From Escherichia coli (GTDB lineage Bacteria; Pseudomonadota; Gammaproteobacteria; Enterobacterales; Enterobacteriaceae): a stretch of DNA of 64,000 nt. The DNA lies in assembly GCF_030013205.1 (NCBI RefSeq), contig NZ_CP122648.1, one strand, 5' to 3'. Made by a program: the position numbers. Positions 19,601 through 25,600 of this stretch are shown one piece after another (the first letter of the stretch is position 1; each line of letters begins with the position of its first letter).

Positions 19601-22600
19601 TGCTGCAACCAGGCGGCCTGAACACCACGTCGGTGAAAAGTGGACAGCAATGGGATGCGCCAAATGGCTGGGCTCCCCTGCAATGGGTGGCGACAGAAGG
19701 GTTGCAAAACTACGGGCAGAACGAGGTGGCGATGGACATTAGCTGGCACTTCCTGACCAATGTTCAGCACACTTATGACCGGGAGAAGAAGCTGGTCGAG
19801 TAATATGATGTCAGCACCACCGGAACAGGGGGCGGCGGTGGCGAATATCCATTACAGGATGGCTTTGGCTGGACCAATGGCGTGACGCTGAAAATGCTGG
19901 ATTTGATCTGCCCGAAAGAGCAACCGTGTGACAATGTTCCGGCGACGCGTCCACTCAGTGAATCAACAACACAGCCGGTAAAACAAAAAGAGGCGGAACC
20001 TACGCCTTAACTTTGCTGTATATCGAGCAATGCCATTATGTGCATAAAATTGGCATTGCTCTTTTTTCGCCACGAAATGCCCCCCATTCTACGGTCTATG
20101 CCTTTATTTTCTTTTATCAGAGAAGATTTTAATTTTATTTTATCAATTTGTTAATCATTACACCTCTATTTATATTTTTCGCCACTCCGCCATTCTCCCT
20201 GACAATTTTCTTGTGGAACAAAGTGTTATTTAAGCAACAAGCAAATCATTCTGTCTCTTTAGACAAATTTTGACATCAAACATGATTTTTTTCGATATAT
20301 ATGTAAATATATAGCGGTTTTAATTATCAGGATATAACTTATGTCACTAACCAGACGGAGGTTTACACAGATTCTTGCGTCGACGTTGTTCCTGCATCAT
20401 CTGCCTTCTTTTGCACAATCAGTCAAATTCTGGGCCTCACTGACGCTTCCCGAAGCCCAAAACATTACACGCATCGTCAGCGCAGGTGCGCCCGCCGATT
20501 TGCTATTGCTGGCTGTCGCGCCAGAAAAAATGGTCGGTTTTTCCTCTTTTGATTTTGCCCGTCAGGCATTAATTCCATTGCCAGAGCACATTCGCCAGTT
20601 ACCCAGGCTGGGACGACTCGCCGGGCGCGCCAGCACACTCTCGCTGGAAGGGCTTATGGCGTTACATCCCGATTTGGTCGTTGATTGCGGCAATACGGAT
20701 GAAACCTGGATCTCCCAGGCACGGCAGGTTAGCGAACAGACACAAATACCCTGGTTATTGCTTAACGGGAAACTGGAACAATCAGCAGAACAGTTAACAA
20801 CGCTTGGCAAAACGTTAGGCGAAGAGCACCGCGCCGCAGAACAAGCCAATCTCGCCAGCCGCTTCGTTGGTGAAGCTCAGGCATTCGCCACCTCACCCGC
20901 CGCTAACCTCAGCTTTTATGCTGCGCGCGGTCCTCGAGGGCTGGAAACGGGCTTACAGGGTTCGTTGCATACCGAGGCGGCGGAATTATTAGGTTTGCAT
21001 AACGTCGCGCCAATAGCCGATCGCCACGGTCTGACACAGGTTTCCATGGAAAATCTCCTGCGCTGGCAGCCGGATATTATTCTGGTTCAGGAGGCCGTTA
21101 CTGCAGATTTTATTCGTCGTGATCCTCTCTGGCAGGGCGTGAAAGCGGTTGCGGAACAACGCATCTTATTTTTAAGTGGCCTGCCCTTTGGCTGGCTGGA
21201 TGCCCCGCCGGGAATCAACCGTCTTCTGGGATTACGCAGACTTCACGCCTGGCTGGATCCCGCCATCAATCGCCAGTTTAAAAGTGACATGCAGCATTAC
21301 GCCCAACTGTTCTGGCATTGCCCATTAAGTGACGCCGACTATCAAAAATTGGTGGCGAGCTAATGAGAACCGTAAACGGATGTATTTTGCTGCTGGCAGC
21401 TATCAGTATCACTTTTGCCGCCGTAAGTGGGGCTTATCATCTCGATATACAGCAACTGCTGGCGCTCATTCTGCGTCAAGAAAATGTTCCTGTGCAGGAA
21501 CAAATTGTCTTCTGGCAAATCCGCGTGCCGCGTATTCTTGCTGCGCTGTTTCTGGGCGCGGCGCTGGCAGGGGCCGGAACCACCTATCAGGGAATGTTCC
21601 GTAATCCCTTAGTGTCACCGGATATTTTAGGCGTCTCCGCCGGTGCCGGACTTGGTGCCTGCGCGGCAATCCTGTGGGGATTATCCATTGTTTACATCCA
21701 GCTGTACGCATTTTGCGGCGGGCTGATGGTGGTCGCGGGCGTCTGGTTGATTACGCGTCGGGTGACCCGCCACGATCCGATCTTAACCCTGGTGCTGGTA
21801 GGCATTGCGTTAGGAACGTTGTGCGGAGCGGGGATATCGCTAATAAAAACGCTGGCCGATCCTTACACCCAGTTACCGTCAATTACCTTCTGGTTGCTGG
21901 GGGGGCTGTCCACCGTGACCTTACGCGATCTCTGCTATGCTGCACCGATCATTCTCATAGGCTCCTTGCCCCTGTTTTTTCTCCGCTGGCGCATGAATTT
22001 ACTCACGCTTTCCGACGACGAAGCCCGTTCGCTGGGACTGAACGTGACACGTCTGCGCTTTGGATTAATTGTCTGCGCCACACTAATCACCGCCAGCACG
22101 GTAGCAATAGCGGGCATAATTGGTTGGGTCGGCCTGGTCGTTCCGCACATTGCCCGCTTGTTGACCGGTCATAACCATCAGCAGCTGTTGCCCATGGCAA
22201 TGTGTACTGGCGCGATTCTGCTCCTGCTTACCGATACGCTGGCACGCAGCATTGGAACAACAGAAATCCCACTTGGCATTCTGACCGCTTTTGTTGGTGC
22301 ACCGTTTTTCCTGTTTTTGTTGTTACGCGGAGGTCGCCAGTGACTTTGCTTGCCGTCCGTCATGCGTCTCTGGGTTACTCCCGCCATCCGGTGCTACGCG
22401 ACGTGTCCTTCACCCTGTCGCAAGGAACAATTTGTTGTCTGTTAGGAGCCAATGGTTGCGGCAAAACCACACTCATGCGCTCCATTCTTGGCGTTATACC
22501 GTTATTAAAAGGCGAGATCTTACTGGATAGCCTCTCTGTGCAGACACTCAGCCATCGCCAGCGCGCGCAGGCTATTGCCTGGGTGCCGCAGGCGCACGAC

Positions 22601-25600
22601 GGCATTTTTGCTTTTAGTGTGCTGGATATGGTGTTGATGGGCCTGGCCCCCACCATAGGCGCTTTTTCCGTTCCCGGTAAGCAAGAACGCCTGAAAGCAA
22701 CGGAGCAACTGGAAAAGCTGGGCATTTTGCATCTGGCGACACGACGCTGGAATACGCTTAGCGGCGGTGAACGTCAGCTGGCTTTAATCGCCCGTGCACT
22801 CGTCCAGCAACCGCGCTTGTTATTACTGGATGAGCCTGCCTCCAGCCTCGATTTCGGTCATCAGATCCAACTACTGGACACGCTGGCGCAGCTCAAAAAT
22901 AACGGCATGACAATGTTAATGTCGACTCATCATCCGCTCCATGCCAACGCCATTGCCGACAGCATTATCCAGGTAGAGCCAGATGGACGAGTAACACAAG
23001 GCTTACCGACCGAACAGTTAACAACGAAAAAACTGGCTGCCCTGTACCGGGTTTCTGCCGACCAGATTCACCATCACCTCTCTGCAATTAAGCACTAAGG
23101 AAAAATCATGCTCATTGACGATATTGATTTTGCAGACCTTTACCTTCAGCAACTCAGGCTGGCCCATCGCACAGAAAAAACGCCGGATCACTGGGATCAA
23201 CGGGCGGAAAAAATGGCGGAAAATTGCGCCTCGCCTACGGACAGCTACCTGCAACAACTGACCTCAAAAATTGACCTGCAAGGCGCGCAAACCTTATTCG
23301 ATATGGGCTGCGGACCGGGTACCGTATCGCTGGCGCTGGCGGCCAAACTCACGACGATTTATGGCGTTGATTACAGTCAGGGGATGCTGAACGTTGCCGC
23401 CCGTCGCGCCGCCGCGCTAAAGGCAGACAATGTCCACTGGATCCAGCGCGCCTGGGAAGAGGACTGGAGTGACCTGCCACGCTGCGATATTGCCGTGGCT
23501 TCCCGCTCCACTCTGGTGGCTGATATGCGCCAGGCAATGAGCAAACTGAATAATCAGGCACGGCTTCGCGTCTATACGACTCATCTGGTCAGCACCTCGT
23601 TCGTCTCTCCAGCCATTCAGCGGGCGGCTGGTCGGGAAGTGATCGAATTACCCAACTATATCTTTGCGCTCAACGTCCTGTATCAGATGGGAATTTATGC
23701 TCACGTTGATTTTATCCGTGGACAAAATTGCCAACAGGATAACAGCACCTGGGAACGTTTTGAGCAGAACGTCAGCTGGAGTCTGGGCGCGCTTAACGAC
23801 GATGAGCGTGAGCGGTTATATCGCTGGTATCAACAACAAGATGCTCGTGCCCTCGCCCCTGCCAGCCGCGACTGGGCGCTCATCTGGTGGGATAGCGTAC
23901 CGCAAGAGGCACTGCGATGATTTTCCTTTCTCAGGCACAAATCGATGCGTTACTTCTGGAAGATATCCAGGGCGGTGACCTGACCACGCGAGCATTAAAT
24001 ATTGGACACCAGCATGGCTATATAGAGTTTTTTCACCGTCAGGGCGGCTGCGTCAGCGGAATTTCTGTCGCGTGTAAGATGTTAACTACGCTGGGATTAA
24101 CTATTGATGACGCGGTCAGCGACGGTTCACAAGCGAACGCGGGTCAGCGGCTAATCCGTGCGCAGGGTAATGCCGCAGCACTTCATCAGGGATGGAAGGC
24201 AGTCCAGAATGTGCTGGAGTGGAGTTGCGGTGTTTCTGATTATCTCGCTCAAATGCTGGCGTTACTTCGTGAACGTTACCCTGATGGCAATATCGCCTGC
24301 CCCCGAAAAGCAATTCCGGGCACCCGCTTACTGGCCTCGCAGGCAATTCTGGCTGCCGGAGGACTGATTCATCGTGCCGGATGTGCGGAAACCATATTAT
24401 TGTTTGCCAACCACCGCCATTTTCTTCATGACAATCAGGACTGGTCAGGCGCAATCAATCAGTTACGTCGCCACGCACCCGAGAAGAAAATAGTTGTTGA
24501 AGCCGACACGCCGAAAGAGGCAATCGCCGCGTTACGCGCGCAACCAGACGTACTTCAGCTCGACAAATTTAATCCGCAACAGGCAACTGAAATTGCGCAA
24601 ATAGCACCGTCGCTGGCTCCTCACTGCACGCTGGCTCTGACCGGCGGAATTAATCTGACAACACTCAAAAATTACCTCGACTGCGGCATTCGCCTTTTTA
24701 TTACCTCCGCGCCTTATTACGCGACACCAGCTGACATTAAAGTCAGTCTGCAACCCGCAGCCTCTATTTAATTCTTTGTTAAACGGAATTTATTCTATGA
24801 GACTCAAAAAACGTTATCTCTGCACAGCATTATCACTTGCCTTTACCCAGCAGGCCGTAGCGGCTCAGGAGAGTGACACGCTGACCGTATGGTCCAGTCC
24901 GGTATCATCGACGACGACCACCGTTCTCGATCAACCCACCATGAAGGCCCTGGATAAACAGAATGTCGCTCAGGCATTAAGTGTCGTCCCCGGCGTGGTG
25001 CTGCAAAAGTCAGGTAGCCGCAACGAAGAACAGGTCAAAGTTCGTGGCTTTGATAGTCGTCAGGTGCCGGTCTATTTCGACGGTGTGCCCATTTATGTTC
25101 CCTATGACGGCAACCTCGATCTGGCGCGGATTCTGACCAACAATCTGGGGGCAGTCGAAGTTTCCAAAGGGTATTCGTCGCTGCTTCAGGGGCCTAATCA
25201 GATGGGCGGAGCCATTAATATCACCACCCAGAAGCCAACAAAACCTCTGGAAGCAAATCTGGGATATCGCCAGGGATGGAGCCGTAGCCAGGACAATGCC
25301 TACGATATGCATGCTTCATTTGCCGCCAGCAGCGATCTGGGGTATTTGCAAGTCAGCGGTAGCCAGCTAAAGCAGGATTTTCTCGGCCTGCCGCATGGTG
25401 TAAATAATGATATTGCAGGCAAACACGGCAAGATGATTAATTCATCGGCTGATGATAAACGCGGCATTGTGAAGCTCGGTTTTACACCACGCGAAAACGA
25501 TGAATACACATTGACTTACATTAAGCAGGATGGTGAAAAAGATAACCCGCCATACAGTGGAAATAGTGGTCAAAAATCACGCTACTGGCAGTGGCCAGAG

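What the first reader, a model, noticed from the sequence alone, without database searches (positions are those of the whole stretch)
21360..23920. Translational coupling by start/stop overlaps along the island operon
The first five island genes are joined by overlaps or minimal spacers (TAATG at 21361..21365, GTGA at 22340..22343, 9-bp gap at 23099..23107, ATGA at 23917..23920). This argues that the methyltransferase and ModD-like genes are true operon members with the transporter rather than chance neighbours.
Basis: seen in the sequence. Interest (0 to 1): 0.3.

Follow-up and report, generated by a model that had tools for sequence, protein, structure and literature searches.

The report
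Molybdenum-controlled uptake operon with overlapping genes
The gene overlaps are real but ordinary signs of one operon; what is less ordinary is that this E. coli operon, annotated as an iron transporter, carries a near-perfect binding site for the molybdenum regulator ModE and looks like a molybdenum-responsive uptake system.

Summary
All four junctions are exactly as described: TAATG (-1), GTGA (-4), a 9-nt spacer and ATGA (-4). RefSeq gene calls and profile or homolog alignments support the start codons.

Such junctions are common. In E. coli K-12, 24% of same-strand pairs lie at -8..+6 nt and 7% at +9..+12 nt. The motifs alone prove little.

In 80 species-level loci found through the methyltransferase (MT), it follows the ABC ATPase in 62. 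MT|ModD is ATGA/GTGA in 44 of 45 loci, and permease|ATPase is -4 or -1 in 52 of 57.

Only three junctions can couple translation by termination-reinitiation. The 9-nt spacer carries its own Shine-Dalgarno sequence. Coupling itself is untested.

New here: a unique, near-consensus ModE operator (20291-20318) lies 22 nt before the first gene. It is conserved across more than 12 genera, and a second copy appears wherever the TonB-dependent receptor gene is set apart.

The permease is closest to H. influenzae MolB. Burkholderiales clusters carry modA, modB, modD and modE. No Fur box was found.

The locus is syntenic across Enterobacteriaceae, so it is not a foreign island. Its receptor gene is frameshifted in this strain.

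The parts
20270..20275 (+). -35-like hexamer TTGACA; its TTGA core is invariant in 10 aligned enterobacterial upstream regions
20291..20318 (.). Candidate ModE operator TTCGATATATATGTAAATATATAGCGGT. It has 2 mismatches to ATCGnTATATA-N6-TATATAnCGAT and ends 22 nt before the SBP ATG.
20328..20332 (+). Shine-Dalgarno-like CAGGA for the first gene, conserved in orthologous loci
20341..21363 (+). Periplasmic substrate-binding protein (Peripla_BP_2, 340 aa), annotated 'iron ABC transporter substrate-binding protein'
21361..21365 (+). Junction 1: TAATG, stop/start overlap of 1 nt
21363..22343 (+). FecCD-family type II ABC permease (326 aa); best solved relative is H. influenzae HI1471 (MolB)
22329..22333 (+). 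Strong Shine-Dalgarno GGAGG inside the permease 3' end, 6 nt before the ATPase GTG (-10.2 kcal/mol, strongest 4% in the window)
22340..22343 (+). Junction 2: GTGA, overlap of 4 nt (ATGA in most other genera)
22340..23098 (+). ABC ATPase (252 aa, GTG start); best single-NBD solved relative is HI1470 (MolC)
23099..23107 (+). Junction 3: 9-nt spacer GGAAAAATC. The Shine-Dalgarno AAGGA (23097-23101) spans the stop codon.
23108..23920 (+). Class I SAM-dependent methyltransferase (270 aa), a family-specific small-molecule MT fold
23917..23920 (+). Junction 4: ATGA, overlap of 4 nt; the most conserved junction (44 of 45 loci)
23917..24771 (+). ModD (TIGR01334, 497 bits against a cutoff of 179), a quinolinate-phosphoribosyltransferase-like protein
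24772..24796 (+). 25-nt spacer between ModD and the receptor gene; too short for the 28-nt ModE box found in genera where this gap is >=88 nt
24797..26766 (+). TonB-dependent receptor gene, a pseudogene in this strain (1-nt deletion after 25854); intact at 656 aa in other E. coli

Best explanation
Window 20270-26766 holds one six-gene transcription unit: SBP, type II ABC permease, ATPase, SAM-methyltransferase, ModD and a TonB-dependent receptor. It is driven from a single promoter whose -10/start region is covered by a ModE operator.

The start/stop overlaps at SBP|permease (-1), permease|ATPase (-4) and MT|ModD (-4) are the ordinary signature of tight co-transcription. They most likely allow termination-reinitiation coupling, with Shine-Dalgarno motifs embedded in the upstream gene. 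The 9-nt ATPase|MT and 25-nt ModD|receptor junctions are co-transcribed, but translation there probably starts on their own ribosome-binding sites.

Functionally, the operon is most likely repressed by ModE-molybdate and expressed under molybdenum shortage. It would import a molybdenum or tungsten species through a MolBC-like importer fed by the outer-membrane receptor, and MT and ModD would act as a conserved cytoplasmic pair.

Shown: the junctions, gene identities, conserved synteny and junction geometry, and the conserved ModE-box pattern.
Inferred: co-transcription, coupling, repression by ModE, the substrate, and the roles of MT and ModD.
For: Junctions and gene bounds are confirmed.

Conservation in 80 species-level loci:
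- ATPase followed by MT in 62 of 80 loci (27 genera).
- MT|ModD at -4 in 44 of 45 loci (17 genera).
- Permease|ATPase at -4 in 48 and -1 in 4 of 57 loci.
- SBP|permease at -4 in 26 and -1 in 11 of 56 loci.
- The overlaps persist although MT C-terminal tails differ in length and sequence.

No + strand promoter-like site was found inside 20341-24771, and terminator-like sites do not exceed the shuffle expectation.

Experimental background: 13 of 14 tested overlapping pairs are strictly coupled. Coupling decays within about 20-40 nt. Of the +9..+12 pairs in K-12, 194 of 201 are polycistronic (PMC6728339 and PMC10666635).

ModE operator:
- The site at 20291-20318 has 2 mismatches and is the only site with <=5 mismatches in 64 kb. 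None of 100 shuffles gave a match.
- It matches better than the authentic K-12 modA and moaA sites (4 mismatches each), and it has modA-like geometry, 22 against 17 nt before the ATG.
- A box with <=4 mismatches lies upstream of SBP in 43 of 56 loci.
- A second box sits before the receptor gene in 22 of 30 loci where that gap is >40 nt, and in 0 of 22 where it is <=40 nt.
- Eight other E. coli carry the same box and the same junctions.

Links to molybdenum:
- The permease is closest to MolB HI1471 (223 bits, against 175 for FhuB) and the ATPase to MolC.
- Burkholderiales clusters contain bona fide modA, modB, modD and modE next to the MT.
- Pectobacterium has a di-Mop gene directly upstream.
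- In the literature ModD travels with mod genes.
Against: - No transcript, ribosome-profiling or binding data were available, so co-transcription, coupling and ModE binding are all inferred.
- Every downstream start has a usable Shine-Dalgarno motif, and the ATPase has a strong one. Independent initiation could therefore explain expression without coupling.
- My ortholog start codons were chosen by extrapolating from the E. coli N-termini. This favours equivalent starts, though it does not fix the position of the upstream stop.
- The SBP is a class III chelate-type binding protein with only weak similarity to MolA (1e-7). The substrate could be an iron or other metal chelate, as annotated.
- MT-ModD also occurs alone in Edwardsiella and Leminorella, and MT occurs without any transporter in about 17 of 80 loci. 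The enzymes are therefore not obligately tied to this transporter.
- A fused MT-linker-ModD AlphaFold model gave pTM 0.49, so no confident complex was seen.
- Several E. coli lineages carry single inactivating mutations.
Confidence: 0.72

Rival explanations
1. Compaction without coupling. The genes are co-transcribed, but each cistron is initiated independently on its own Shine-Dalgarno sequence. The 1- and 4-nt overlaps are then a neutral by-product of stop and start codon composition and deletion bias.
For: - Shine-Dalgarno-like motifs precede every start, and the ATPase has GGAGG at -10.2 kcal/mol.
- The contribution of the Shine-Dalgarno sequence to reinitiation varies by gene pair (PMC6728339).
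- The ATPase|MT junction drifts from -14 to +68 nt among genera.
- ATGA and GTGA motifs arise easily.
Against: - MT|ModD stays at exactly -4 in 44 of 45 loci, and permease|ATPase at -4 or -1 in 52 of 57, over roughly 50% protein divergence and with variable MT C-terminal tails.
- In E. coli and Haloferax, 13 of 14 tested overlapping pairs were strictly coupled.
Confidence: 0.22
2. Annotation artefact. The overlaps arise from start codons placed too far upstream, and the real starts lie downstream, leaving ordinary spacers.
For: The ATPase uses GTG, and an in-frame TTG lies two codons downstream at 22346. The longest ORF for the ATPase starts even further upstream, at 22202.
Against: - Family profiles align from residues 2-4 of ModD and the ATPase, and from residue 12 of the permease to profile position 2.
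- Orthologs carry ATG at the position of the E. coli GTG.
- Homolog N-termini coincide.
- PGAP chose the same starts independently.
Confidence: 0.03
3. Chance or modular neighbours. MT and ModD are an independent two-gene module with their own promoter that happens to be inserted between the transporter genes and the receptor gene.
For: - MT-ModD occurs alone in Edwardsiella, with its own ModE box 52-58 nt upstream, and in Leminorella behind a TetR gene.
- ModD is absent from the Shewanella, Neisseriaceae and some Klebsiella and Erwinia clusters.
Against: - In E. coli only 9 nt separate the ATPase from MT, and no promoter-like site lies in the upstream coding sequence.
- MT directly follows the ATPase in 27 genera.
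- There is no ModE box between the ATPase and MT anywhere.
- Co-regulation by the same operator type links the modules even where they are separate.
Confidence: 0.05
4. The system is what it is annotated as: a Fur-controlled iron-siderophore or haem uptake system. On this reading the ModE-like palindrome is a coincidental AT-rich promoter element.
For: - The SBP (Peripla_BP_2), the FecCD permease and the TonB-dependent receptor are the classic parts of iron-chelate systems.
- PGAP names the SBP 'iron ABC transporter substrate-binding protein'.
- Some Providencia and Erwinia loci have 14/19 Fur-box-like matches.
Against: - In E. coli no Fur box was found with <=3 mismatches. The best match is 13/19, and 110 of 500 shuffles of the same region reach that score.
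- The ModE palindrome matches 18 of 20 specified positions with exact N6 spacing. It is unique in the window and conserved at the same place in more than 12 genera, and it is duplicated before the receptor gene where needed.
- ModD, modA, modB, modE and Mop genes co-locate with the cluster.
Confidence: 0.12

Closest known systems
Translationally coupled overlapping gene pairs in bacterial operons (ATGA / TGATG class; Huber et al. 2019 PMC6728339 and 2023 PMC10666635)
   Same: Same-strand genes with -4 and -1 nt stop/start overlaps and Shine-Dalgarno motifs inside the upstream gene. One junction falls in the E. coli-typical +9..+12 class.
   Different: Nothing unusual. Coupling is not measured here. 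The MT|ModD pair has no known heteromeric complex, which is the class most enriched for overlaps.
Haemophilus influenzae MolBC-A (HI1470/HI1471/HI1472), a type II ABC importer of molybdate/tungstate. PDB 2NQ2, 3PSA, 3PSH; Tirado-Lee et al. 2011, cited in PMC11734730. Functional details are from my own knowledge.
   Same: The permease is the best PDB match by a wide margin (5.9e-65, 223 bits). The ATPase is the best single-NBD match (1e-35). The SBP is a class III binding protein. The context is molybdenum-linked.
   Different: The SBP is only weakly similar to MolA (1e-7 over about 70 residues), and its best PDB match is an uncharacterised binding protein, 4PAG. The E. coli system adds a TonB-dependent receptor, a methyltransferase and ModD. 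The substrate is untested.
E. coli modABC operon and its ModE operator
   Same: A palindromic ModE box of the ATCGnTATATA-N6-TATATAnCGAT type lies immediately upstream of the first (binding-protein) gene: 22 nt here against 17 nt for modA. This implies repression by ModE-molybdate.
   Different: The transporter is type II (FecCD/BtuC-like) with a chelate-type SBP and an outer-membrane receptor, rather than the type I ModABC oxyanion importer. The box matches the consensus better than modA's does (2 against 4 mismatches).
ModD of the mod gene clusters: Rhodobacter capsulatus modABCD (TIGR01334 description, own knowledge), Geobacter sulfurreducens modE-modD-modABC (PMC2700814), Methanococcus maripaludis modABD (bioRxiv 10.1101/2024.03.05.583561)
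   Same: A full-length TIGR01334 member with a QPRTase-like fold, encoded with a metal-uptake ABC transporter. Its function is unknown.
   Different: Here ModD is translationally overlapped with a dedicated SAM-methyltransferase and sits in a TonB-dependent system. The QPRTase lysine (Mtb K172) is replaced by an invariant Phe.
E. coli fit (fitABCDE-fitR) iron ABC system (PMC2593036)
   Same: An accessory E. coli locus with an outer-membrane receptor and a binding-protein-dependent ABC importer.
   Different: fit has two permeases and an RpiR-like regulator, FitR, with divergent fitA/fitB promoters. It has no MT and no ModD, so it is not the same system.

Membership tests
Co-transcribed operon with translational coupling by termination-reinitiation | Same-strand adjacent genes with stop/start overlap of 1 or 4 nt, or <= ~6 nt spacing | tested here: met
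   Three of four junctions meet this: -1, -4 and -4. The fourth is +9.
Co-transcribed operon with translational coupling by termination-reinitiation | No internal promoter or terminator between the genes | tested here: inconclusive
   The consensus scan found no + strand sigma-70-like site in 20341-24771. Terminator-like hits are at the shuffle expectation: three weak + strand ones lie inside the permease gene and none at a junction. The scan is crude and there are no transcript data.
Co-transcribed operon with translational coupling by termination-reinitiation | Gene order and junction geometry conserved in distant genomes | tested here: met
   ATPase followed by MT in 62 of 80 loci. MT|ModD at -4 in 44 of 45. 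Permease|ATPase at -4 or -1 in 52 of 57.
Co-transcribed operon with translational coupling by termination-reinitiation | Downstream translation depends on upstream translation | not testable with these tools
   This needs two-reporter or ribosome-profiling experiments.
ModE regulon (E. coli-type operator) | Palindrome matching ATCGnTATATA-N6-TATATAnCGAT in the promoter region | tested here: met
   The site at 20291-20318 has 2 mismatches and is unique in the window; none of 100 shuffles matched. The real modA and moaA sites have 4 mismatches each.
ModE regulon (E. coli-type operator) | Site conserved upstream of orthologous operons | tested here: met
   43 of 56 loci have a box upstream of SBP. 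22 of 30 separated receptor genes have their own box. 8 of 8 other E. coli have it.
ModE regulon (E. coli-type operator) | ModE-molybdate binds the site and changes transcription | not testable with these tools
   This needs EMSA or footprinting and expression assays in modE mutants.
MolBC-A-type (type II) molybdate/tungstate ABC importer | Permease and ATPase most similar to MolB/MolC among characterised type II importers | tested here: met
   2nq2_A scores 223 bits against 175 for FhuB, 168 for HmuU and 146 for BtuC. 2nq2_C scores 1e-35. All NCBIfam equivalog scores (BtuC, FecCD, FhuB) fall below their cutoffs.
MolBC-A-type (type II) molybdate/tungstate ABC importer | Cognate binding protein orthologous to MolA and binding molybdate/tungstate | tested here: inconclusive
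   Similarity to MolA 3psa is only 1e-7 over residues 214-286. Ligand binding is untestable here.
ModD family (TIGR01334) | Full-length match above the curated cutoff | tested here: met
   497.5 bits against a cutoff of 178.85, residues 2-278 to profile positions 1-277.
Quinolinate phosphoribosyltransferase (NadC) | Score above the nadC equivalog cutoff and a complete quinolinate-binding set of residues | tested here: not met
   TIGR00078 scores 130.7 bits against a cutoff of 198.4. Relative to Mtb QAPRTase, R139/K140, H161/R162, E201 and D222 are kept, but K172 is replaced by Phe and D173 by Ala. The Phe is invariant in 18 ModD sequences.
Fur-regulated iron-chelate uptake system | Fur box in the promoter region | tested here: not met
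   No match with <=3 mismatches. The best match is 13/19, which 110 of 500 shuffles reach.
E. coli fit iron system | fitA receptor, two permeases, FitR regulator | tested here: not met
   This locus has a single permease and no RpiR-like gene, and it carries MT and ModD instead.
Horizontally acquired genomic island | Deviant composition, mobility genes or tRNA/att flanks, and absence from the same site in related genera | tested here: not met
   GC is 0.52-0.545, similar to the flanks. No mobility genes are annotated. The site is the same treA|ymgE-ycgR-emtA position in E. albertii, Citrobacter, Klebsiella, Raoultella and Enterobacter. The locus is present in 2,139 of 5,426 E. coli genomes. 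tRNA or att flanks were not examined.

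The most novel reading that the evidence does not exclude
The treA-ymgE operon of E. coli and many other Gammaproteobacteria and Betaproteobacteria may not be an iron system. It may be a ModE-repressed, TonB-dependent acquisition pathway for a molybdenum (or tungsten) species, possibly a metal-chelate complex. Import would go through a MolBC-like type II ABC transporter. The invariantly overlapped SAM-methyltransferase/ModD pair, joined by DUF364 and DUF2478 proteins in Betaproteobacteria, would process the cargo or its ligand in the cytoplasm. That would give ModD its first mechanistic context and define an outer-membrane route for molybdenum in enterobacteria.
Probability: 0.4. Interest if true: 0.65.

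Novelty: new variant of a known kind. Interest (0 to 1): 0.4.

Why it matters
The overlaps alone do not matter much. They are textbook operon junctions, and this check mainly shows that they are real, conserved and correctly read as evidence that MT and ModD belong to the operon.

The follow-up matters more. About 39% of complete E. coli genomes carry the operon, including O157:H7 and O145, and so do Citrobacter, Klebsiella, Proteus, Providencia, Morganella, Serratia, Shewanella and many Burkholderiales. It is labelled an iron transporter. Yet it has a conserved ModE operator, a MolB-like permease and ModD, and in Betaproteobacteria it is contiguous with modA, modB, modD and modE.

If it is molybdenum-responsive, three things follow:
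- The annotation is misleading.
- It would be a candidate TonB-dependent route for molybdenum or tungsten.
- The function of ModD, unknown for decades, and of a conserved partner methyltransferase become directly testable in E. coli.

Tried and rejected
- **Rfam scan of 15000-32000 at E<=1.** No riboswitch or leader RNA was found, cobalamin riboswitch included.
- **Fur box.** None with <=3 mismatches, and the best 13/19 match is not above shuffles.
- **Identity with the fit iron system.** Rejected: fit has two permeases and FitR.
- **Literature searches** for ModD with TonB, methyltransferase, siderophore or Proteus, for EDL933 Z-numbers, and for 'ModE regulon' with TonB. None turned up a characterisation of this cluster. 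All ten search slots were used. Studholme & Pau 2003 and Tirado-Lee 2011 are not held, so earlier in-silico prediction of this ModE site cannot be excluded.
- **MT function by sequence and fold.** The profile against PDB gives only weak CbiT-like and generic hits. NCBIfam hits are all below cutoff. The AF2 model is good (pLDDT 91.8), but Foldseek neighbours are generic small-molecule methyltransferases (TM <= 0.57, <= 19% identity). No substrate could be inferred.
- **MT-ModD complex.** A paired 18-sequence alignment with a GS linker gave pTM 0.49, with both domains folded but no confident mutual orientation. This is inconclusive: the alignment is shallow, the model is a monomer, and ModD is probably a homo-oligomer.
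- **Natural MT-ModD fusions.** None among the 120 best hits for each protein. One annotated ABC-MT fusion in Edwardsiella tarda (P0110) is probably a frameshift artefact.
- **Naive ORF calling in high-GC Burkholderiales loci** gave spurious antisense ORFs. I replaced it with tblastn, precomputed gene calls and NCBIfam.

Full report
**Where the window comes from.** The window is identical to E. coli strain K_EC180, NZ_CP062203.1 positions 2844367-2908366. The finding lies in a 6.7-kb segment (20012-26742) between treA and ymgE.

- The SBP gene (20341-21363) ends in TAA at 21361-21363, and the permease ATG is 21363-21365, giving TAATG.
- The permease stop TGA is 22341-22343, and the ATPase GTG is 22340-22342, giving GTGA.
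- The ATPase stops at 23096-23098 and the MT ATG is at 23108, leaving the spacer GGAAAAATC.
- The MT stop TGA is 23918-23920, and the ModD ATG is 23917-23919, giving ATGA.
- PGAP uses the same boundaries.
- The starts are backed by profile alignments that begin at residues 2-12 and by identical homolog N-termini. Other genera carry ATG where E. coli has the ATPase GTG.
- A sixth gene follows ModD after 25 nt. It encodes a TonB-dependent receptor (24797-26766).

**How special are the junctions?** Not very.
- In E. coli K-12, 707 of 2,987 unidirectional pairs (24%) lie between -8 and +6 nt, with -4 the commonest distance.
- Another 203 pairs (7%) lie at +9..+12 nt, and 194 of the 201 with mapped transcripts are polycistronic (PMC10666635).
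- In this window, 12 of 32 other same-strand pairs are <=12 nt apart. Eight of those are known operon pairs: lolB-ispE, umuDC, dhaKLM, dadAX, minDE and ymgIGD.
- The junctions are therefore typical operon junctions. An ATGA or GTGA motif needs only an A or G before a TGA stop.

**Conservation carries the argument.** I built an alignment of MT homologs and used it to fetch 80 species-level loci. I then mapped the island proteins onto them with tblastn and derived the junctions.

| Junction | Result |
|---|---|
| ATPase then MT | adjacent in 62 of 80 loci (27 genera) |
| MT\|ModD | ATGA/GTGA in 44 of 45 loci (17 genera) |
| Permease\|ATPase | -4 in 48 and -1 in 4 of 57 loci |
| SBP\|permease | -4 in 26 and -1 in 11 of 56 loci |
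| ATPase\|MT | drifts from -14 to +68 nt |

- The MT|ModD overlap holds from Escherichia to Proteus, Providencia, Morganella, Edwardsiella and Pectobacterium, although the MT C-terminal tails differ in length and sequence.
- Shine-Dalgarno-like motifs sit in the 3' end of the upstream genes.
- One caveat: I chose ortholog starts by extrapolating from the E. coli N-termini.

**What this means for coupling.**
- Overlapping pairs tested in E. coli and Haloferax were strictly coupled in 13 of 14 cases. Coupling falls steeply with distance.
- The three overlaps are therefore plausible termination-reinitiation sites.
- The 9-nt junction carries AAGGA across the stop codon. It belongs to the class thought to be co-transcribed but initiated independently.
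- No + strand promoter-like site lies inside 20341-24771, and terminator-like hits do not exceed the shuffle expectation.
- Coupling itself remains untested.

**A ModE operator precedes the operon.** The upstream region holds the sequence TTCGATATATATGTAAATATATAGCGGT at 20291-20318.
- It matches the E. coli ModE consensus ATCGnTATATA-N6-TATATAnCGAT (PMC545781) at 18 of 20 specified positions.
- It is the only site with <=5 mismatches in the 64-kb window, and none of 100 shuffles produced a match.
- The authentic K-12 modA and moaA operators each score 4 mismatches. The modA site ends 17 nt before its ATG, and this site ends 22 nt before the SBP ATG.
- Ten enterobacterial upstream regions share little except four elements: a -35-like TTGA(C/T)N, the box about 15 nt downstream of it, the Shine-Dalgarno CAGGA and the ATG.
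- A box with <=4 mismatches lies within 200 nt upstream of SBP in 43 of 56 loci.
- A second box sits 9-57 nt before the receptor gene in 22 of 30 loci where that gene is more than 40 nt from the preceding gene. It appears in none of the 22 loci where the gap is <=40 nt.
- This pattern is what a single ModE-controlled six-gene unit in Escherichia, Citrobacter and Klebsiella predicts, with two ModE-controlled units in Proteus, Providencia, Morganella, Shewanella and Pectobacterium.
- Eight other E. coli genomes have the same box and the same junctions.
- No Fur box and no riboswitch was found.

**Further links to molybdenum.**
- ModD is a full TIGR01334 member (497 bits). It is QPRTase-like and keeps R139/K140, H161/R162, E201 and D222 (M. 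tuberculosis QAPRTase numbering), but has Phe for K172.
- The permease's best solved relative is H. influenzae HI1471 (MolB), at 223 bits against 175 for FhuB. The ATPase's best single-domain hit is HI1470 (MolC). The SBP hits MolA only weakly.
- MolBC-A is the type II molybdate/tungstate importer (Tirado-Lee 2011, cited; details from my own knowledge).
- In Burkholderiales the same TBDR-DUF2478-SBP-permease-ATPase-MT unit is again joined by -4 overlaps. It is followed by DUF364 and then modA, modB, modD and modE, all above NCBIfam cutoffs.
- Another contig has TonB-ExbBD and a TOBE protein alongside the unit. Pectobacterium has a di-Mop gene directly upstream.
- The literature places ModD with mod genes in Geobacter, Methanococcus (where it is cofit with nifH) and Zymomonas. 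Its function is unknown.

**What remains unknown.**
- The substrate is unknown. The SBP is of the chelate-binding class.
- The MT is a confident small-molecule methyltransferase fold with no close characterised relative.
- A fused MT-ModD model gave no confident complex (pTM 0.49).
- MT-ModD can stand alone in Edwardsiella and Leminorella, and MT occurs without the transporter in about 17 loci.

**'Island' is a misnomer.**
- GC content is ordinary.
- The cluster occupies the same treA|ymgE-ycgR-emtA site in E. albertii, Citrobacter, Klebsiella, Raoultella and Enterobacter.
- It is present in 2,139 of 5,426 complete E. coli genomes.
- K-12 has an unrelated 622-bp ycgY segment in its place but keeps the last 24 nt of the receptor ORF. 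This points to loss in K-12 rather than gain elsewhere.

**Verdict.** The notable result is that an 'iron' operon looks ModE-controlled and molybdenum-linked. I could not check whether this had already been predicted in silico elsewhere, for example in RegPrecise or in Studholme & Pau 2003.

Noticed in passing
window 20291-20318: Near-consensus ModE operator (2 mismatches) 22 nt upstream of the first operon gene. It is unique in the 64-kb window and conserved in orthologous loci, and it contradicts the 'iron' annotation.
   Followed up: yes
window 24797-26766 (deletion after 25854): The TonB-dependent receptor gene is a pseudogene in this strain. A 1-nt deletion relative to Escherichia sp. MOD1 and E. 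albertii splits it into ORFs 24776-25990 and 25954-26766.
   Followed up: yes
window 18313-20010 (stop at 19801-19803): treA (periplasmic trehalase) carries a premature TAA and is annotated as a pseudogene with an internal stop.
   Followed up: partly
L091 (O157:H7), L092 (APEC O2:K1:H5), L093-L098: Different E. coli lineages carry different single inactivating mutations in the operon. O157:H7 MD2019EC2705C4 has an internal stop in MT, APEC E19035 has an internal stop in SBP, and this strain has the receptor frameshift. Six of nine sampled genomes have all six genes intact.
   Followed up: partly
window 20012-26742 vs K-12 NC_000913.3 1244983-1245678 (L084): K-12 lacks the operon and has an unrelated 622-bp segment with ycgY in its place. 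Homology resumes at 26743, so K-12 keeps the last 24 nt of the receptor ORF, which suggests loss in K-12.
   Followed up: partly
L006-L022, L028, L047, L058: The cluster sits at the same treA|ymgE-ycgR-emtA site in E. albertii, Citrobacter, Klebsiella, Raoultella and Enterobacter. R. planticola (L028) keeps only treA-MT-receptor.
   Followed up: partly
L065, L066, L068, L075, L085-L088: Betaproteobacterial versions add DUF2478 (between receptor and SBP) and DUF364/DUF4213 ('putative heavy-metal chelation', after MT). They are contiguous with modA, modB, modD and modE. DUF2478-MT pairs occur alone in Bordetella, Castellaniella and Pseudomonas.
   Followed up: partly
L004: A 3.2-kb contig binned as 'Collinsella sp.' (an actinobacterial MAG) is 98-100% identical at protein level to this E. 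coli operon. It is almost certainly misbinned or a contaminant.
   Followed up: no
L079 (Pasteurella canis) 4057-4869 and 5297-6109: Two inverted copies of the MT homolog (41% identity to the E. coli MT), at least one of them next to a triosephosphate isomerase gene, with no transporter nearby.
   Followed up: no
window 59645-60873; also 37911-38369, 50300-53799, 63175-64000: Per RefSeq annotation: an IS2 element splits a cyclic-di-GMP phosphodiesterase/CSS-motif gene, an IS200C transposase lies next to fadR, and ypjA and bluF are frameshifted. Together with the pseudogenes above, this shows several decayed genes in one 64-kb window.
   Followed up: no
P0110 (Edwardsiella tarda): A 315-aa protein annotated as an ABC ATP-binding protein carries both ABC_tran and methyltransferase domains. 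It is probably a frameshift-generated fusion across the ATPase|MT junction.
   Followed up: no
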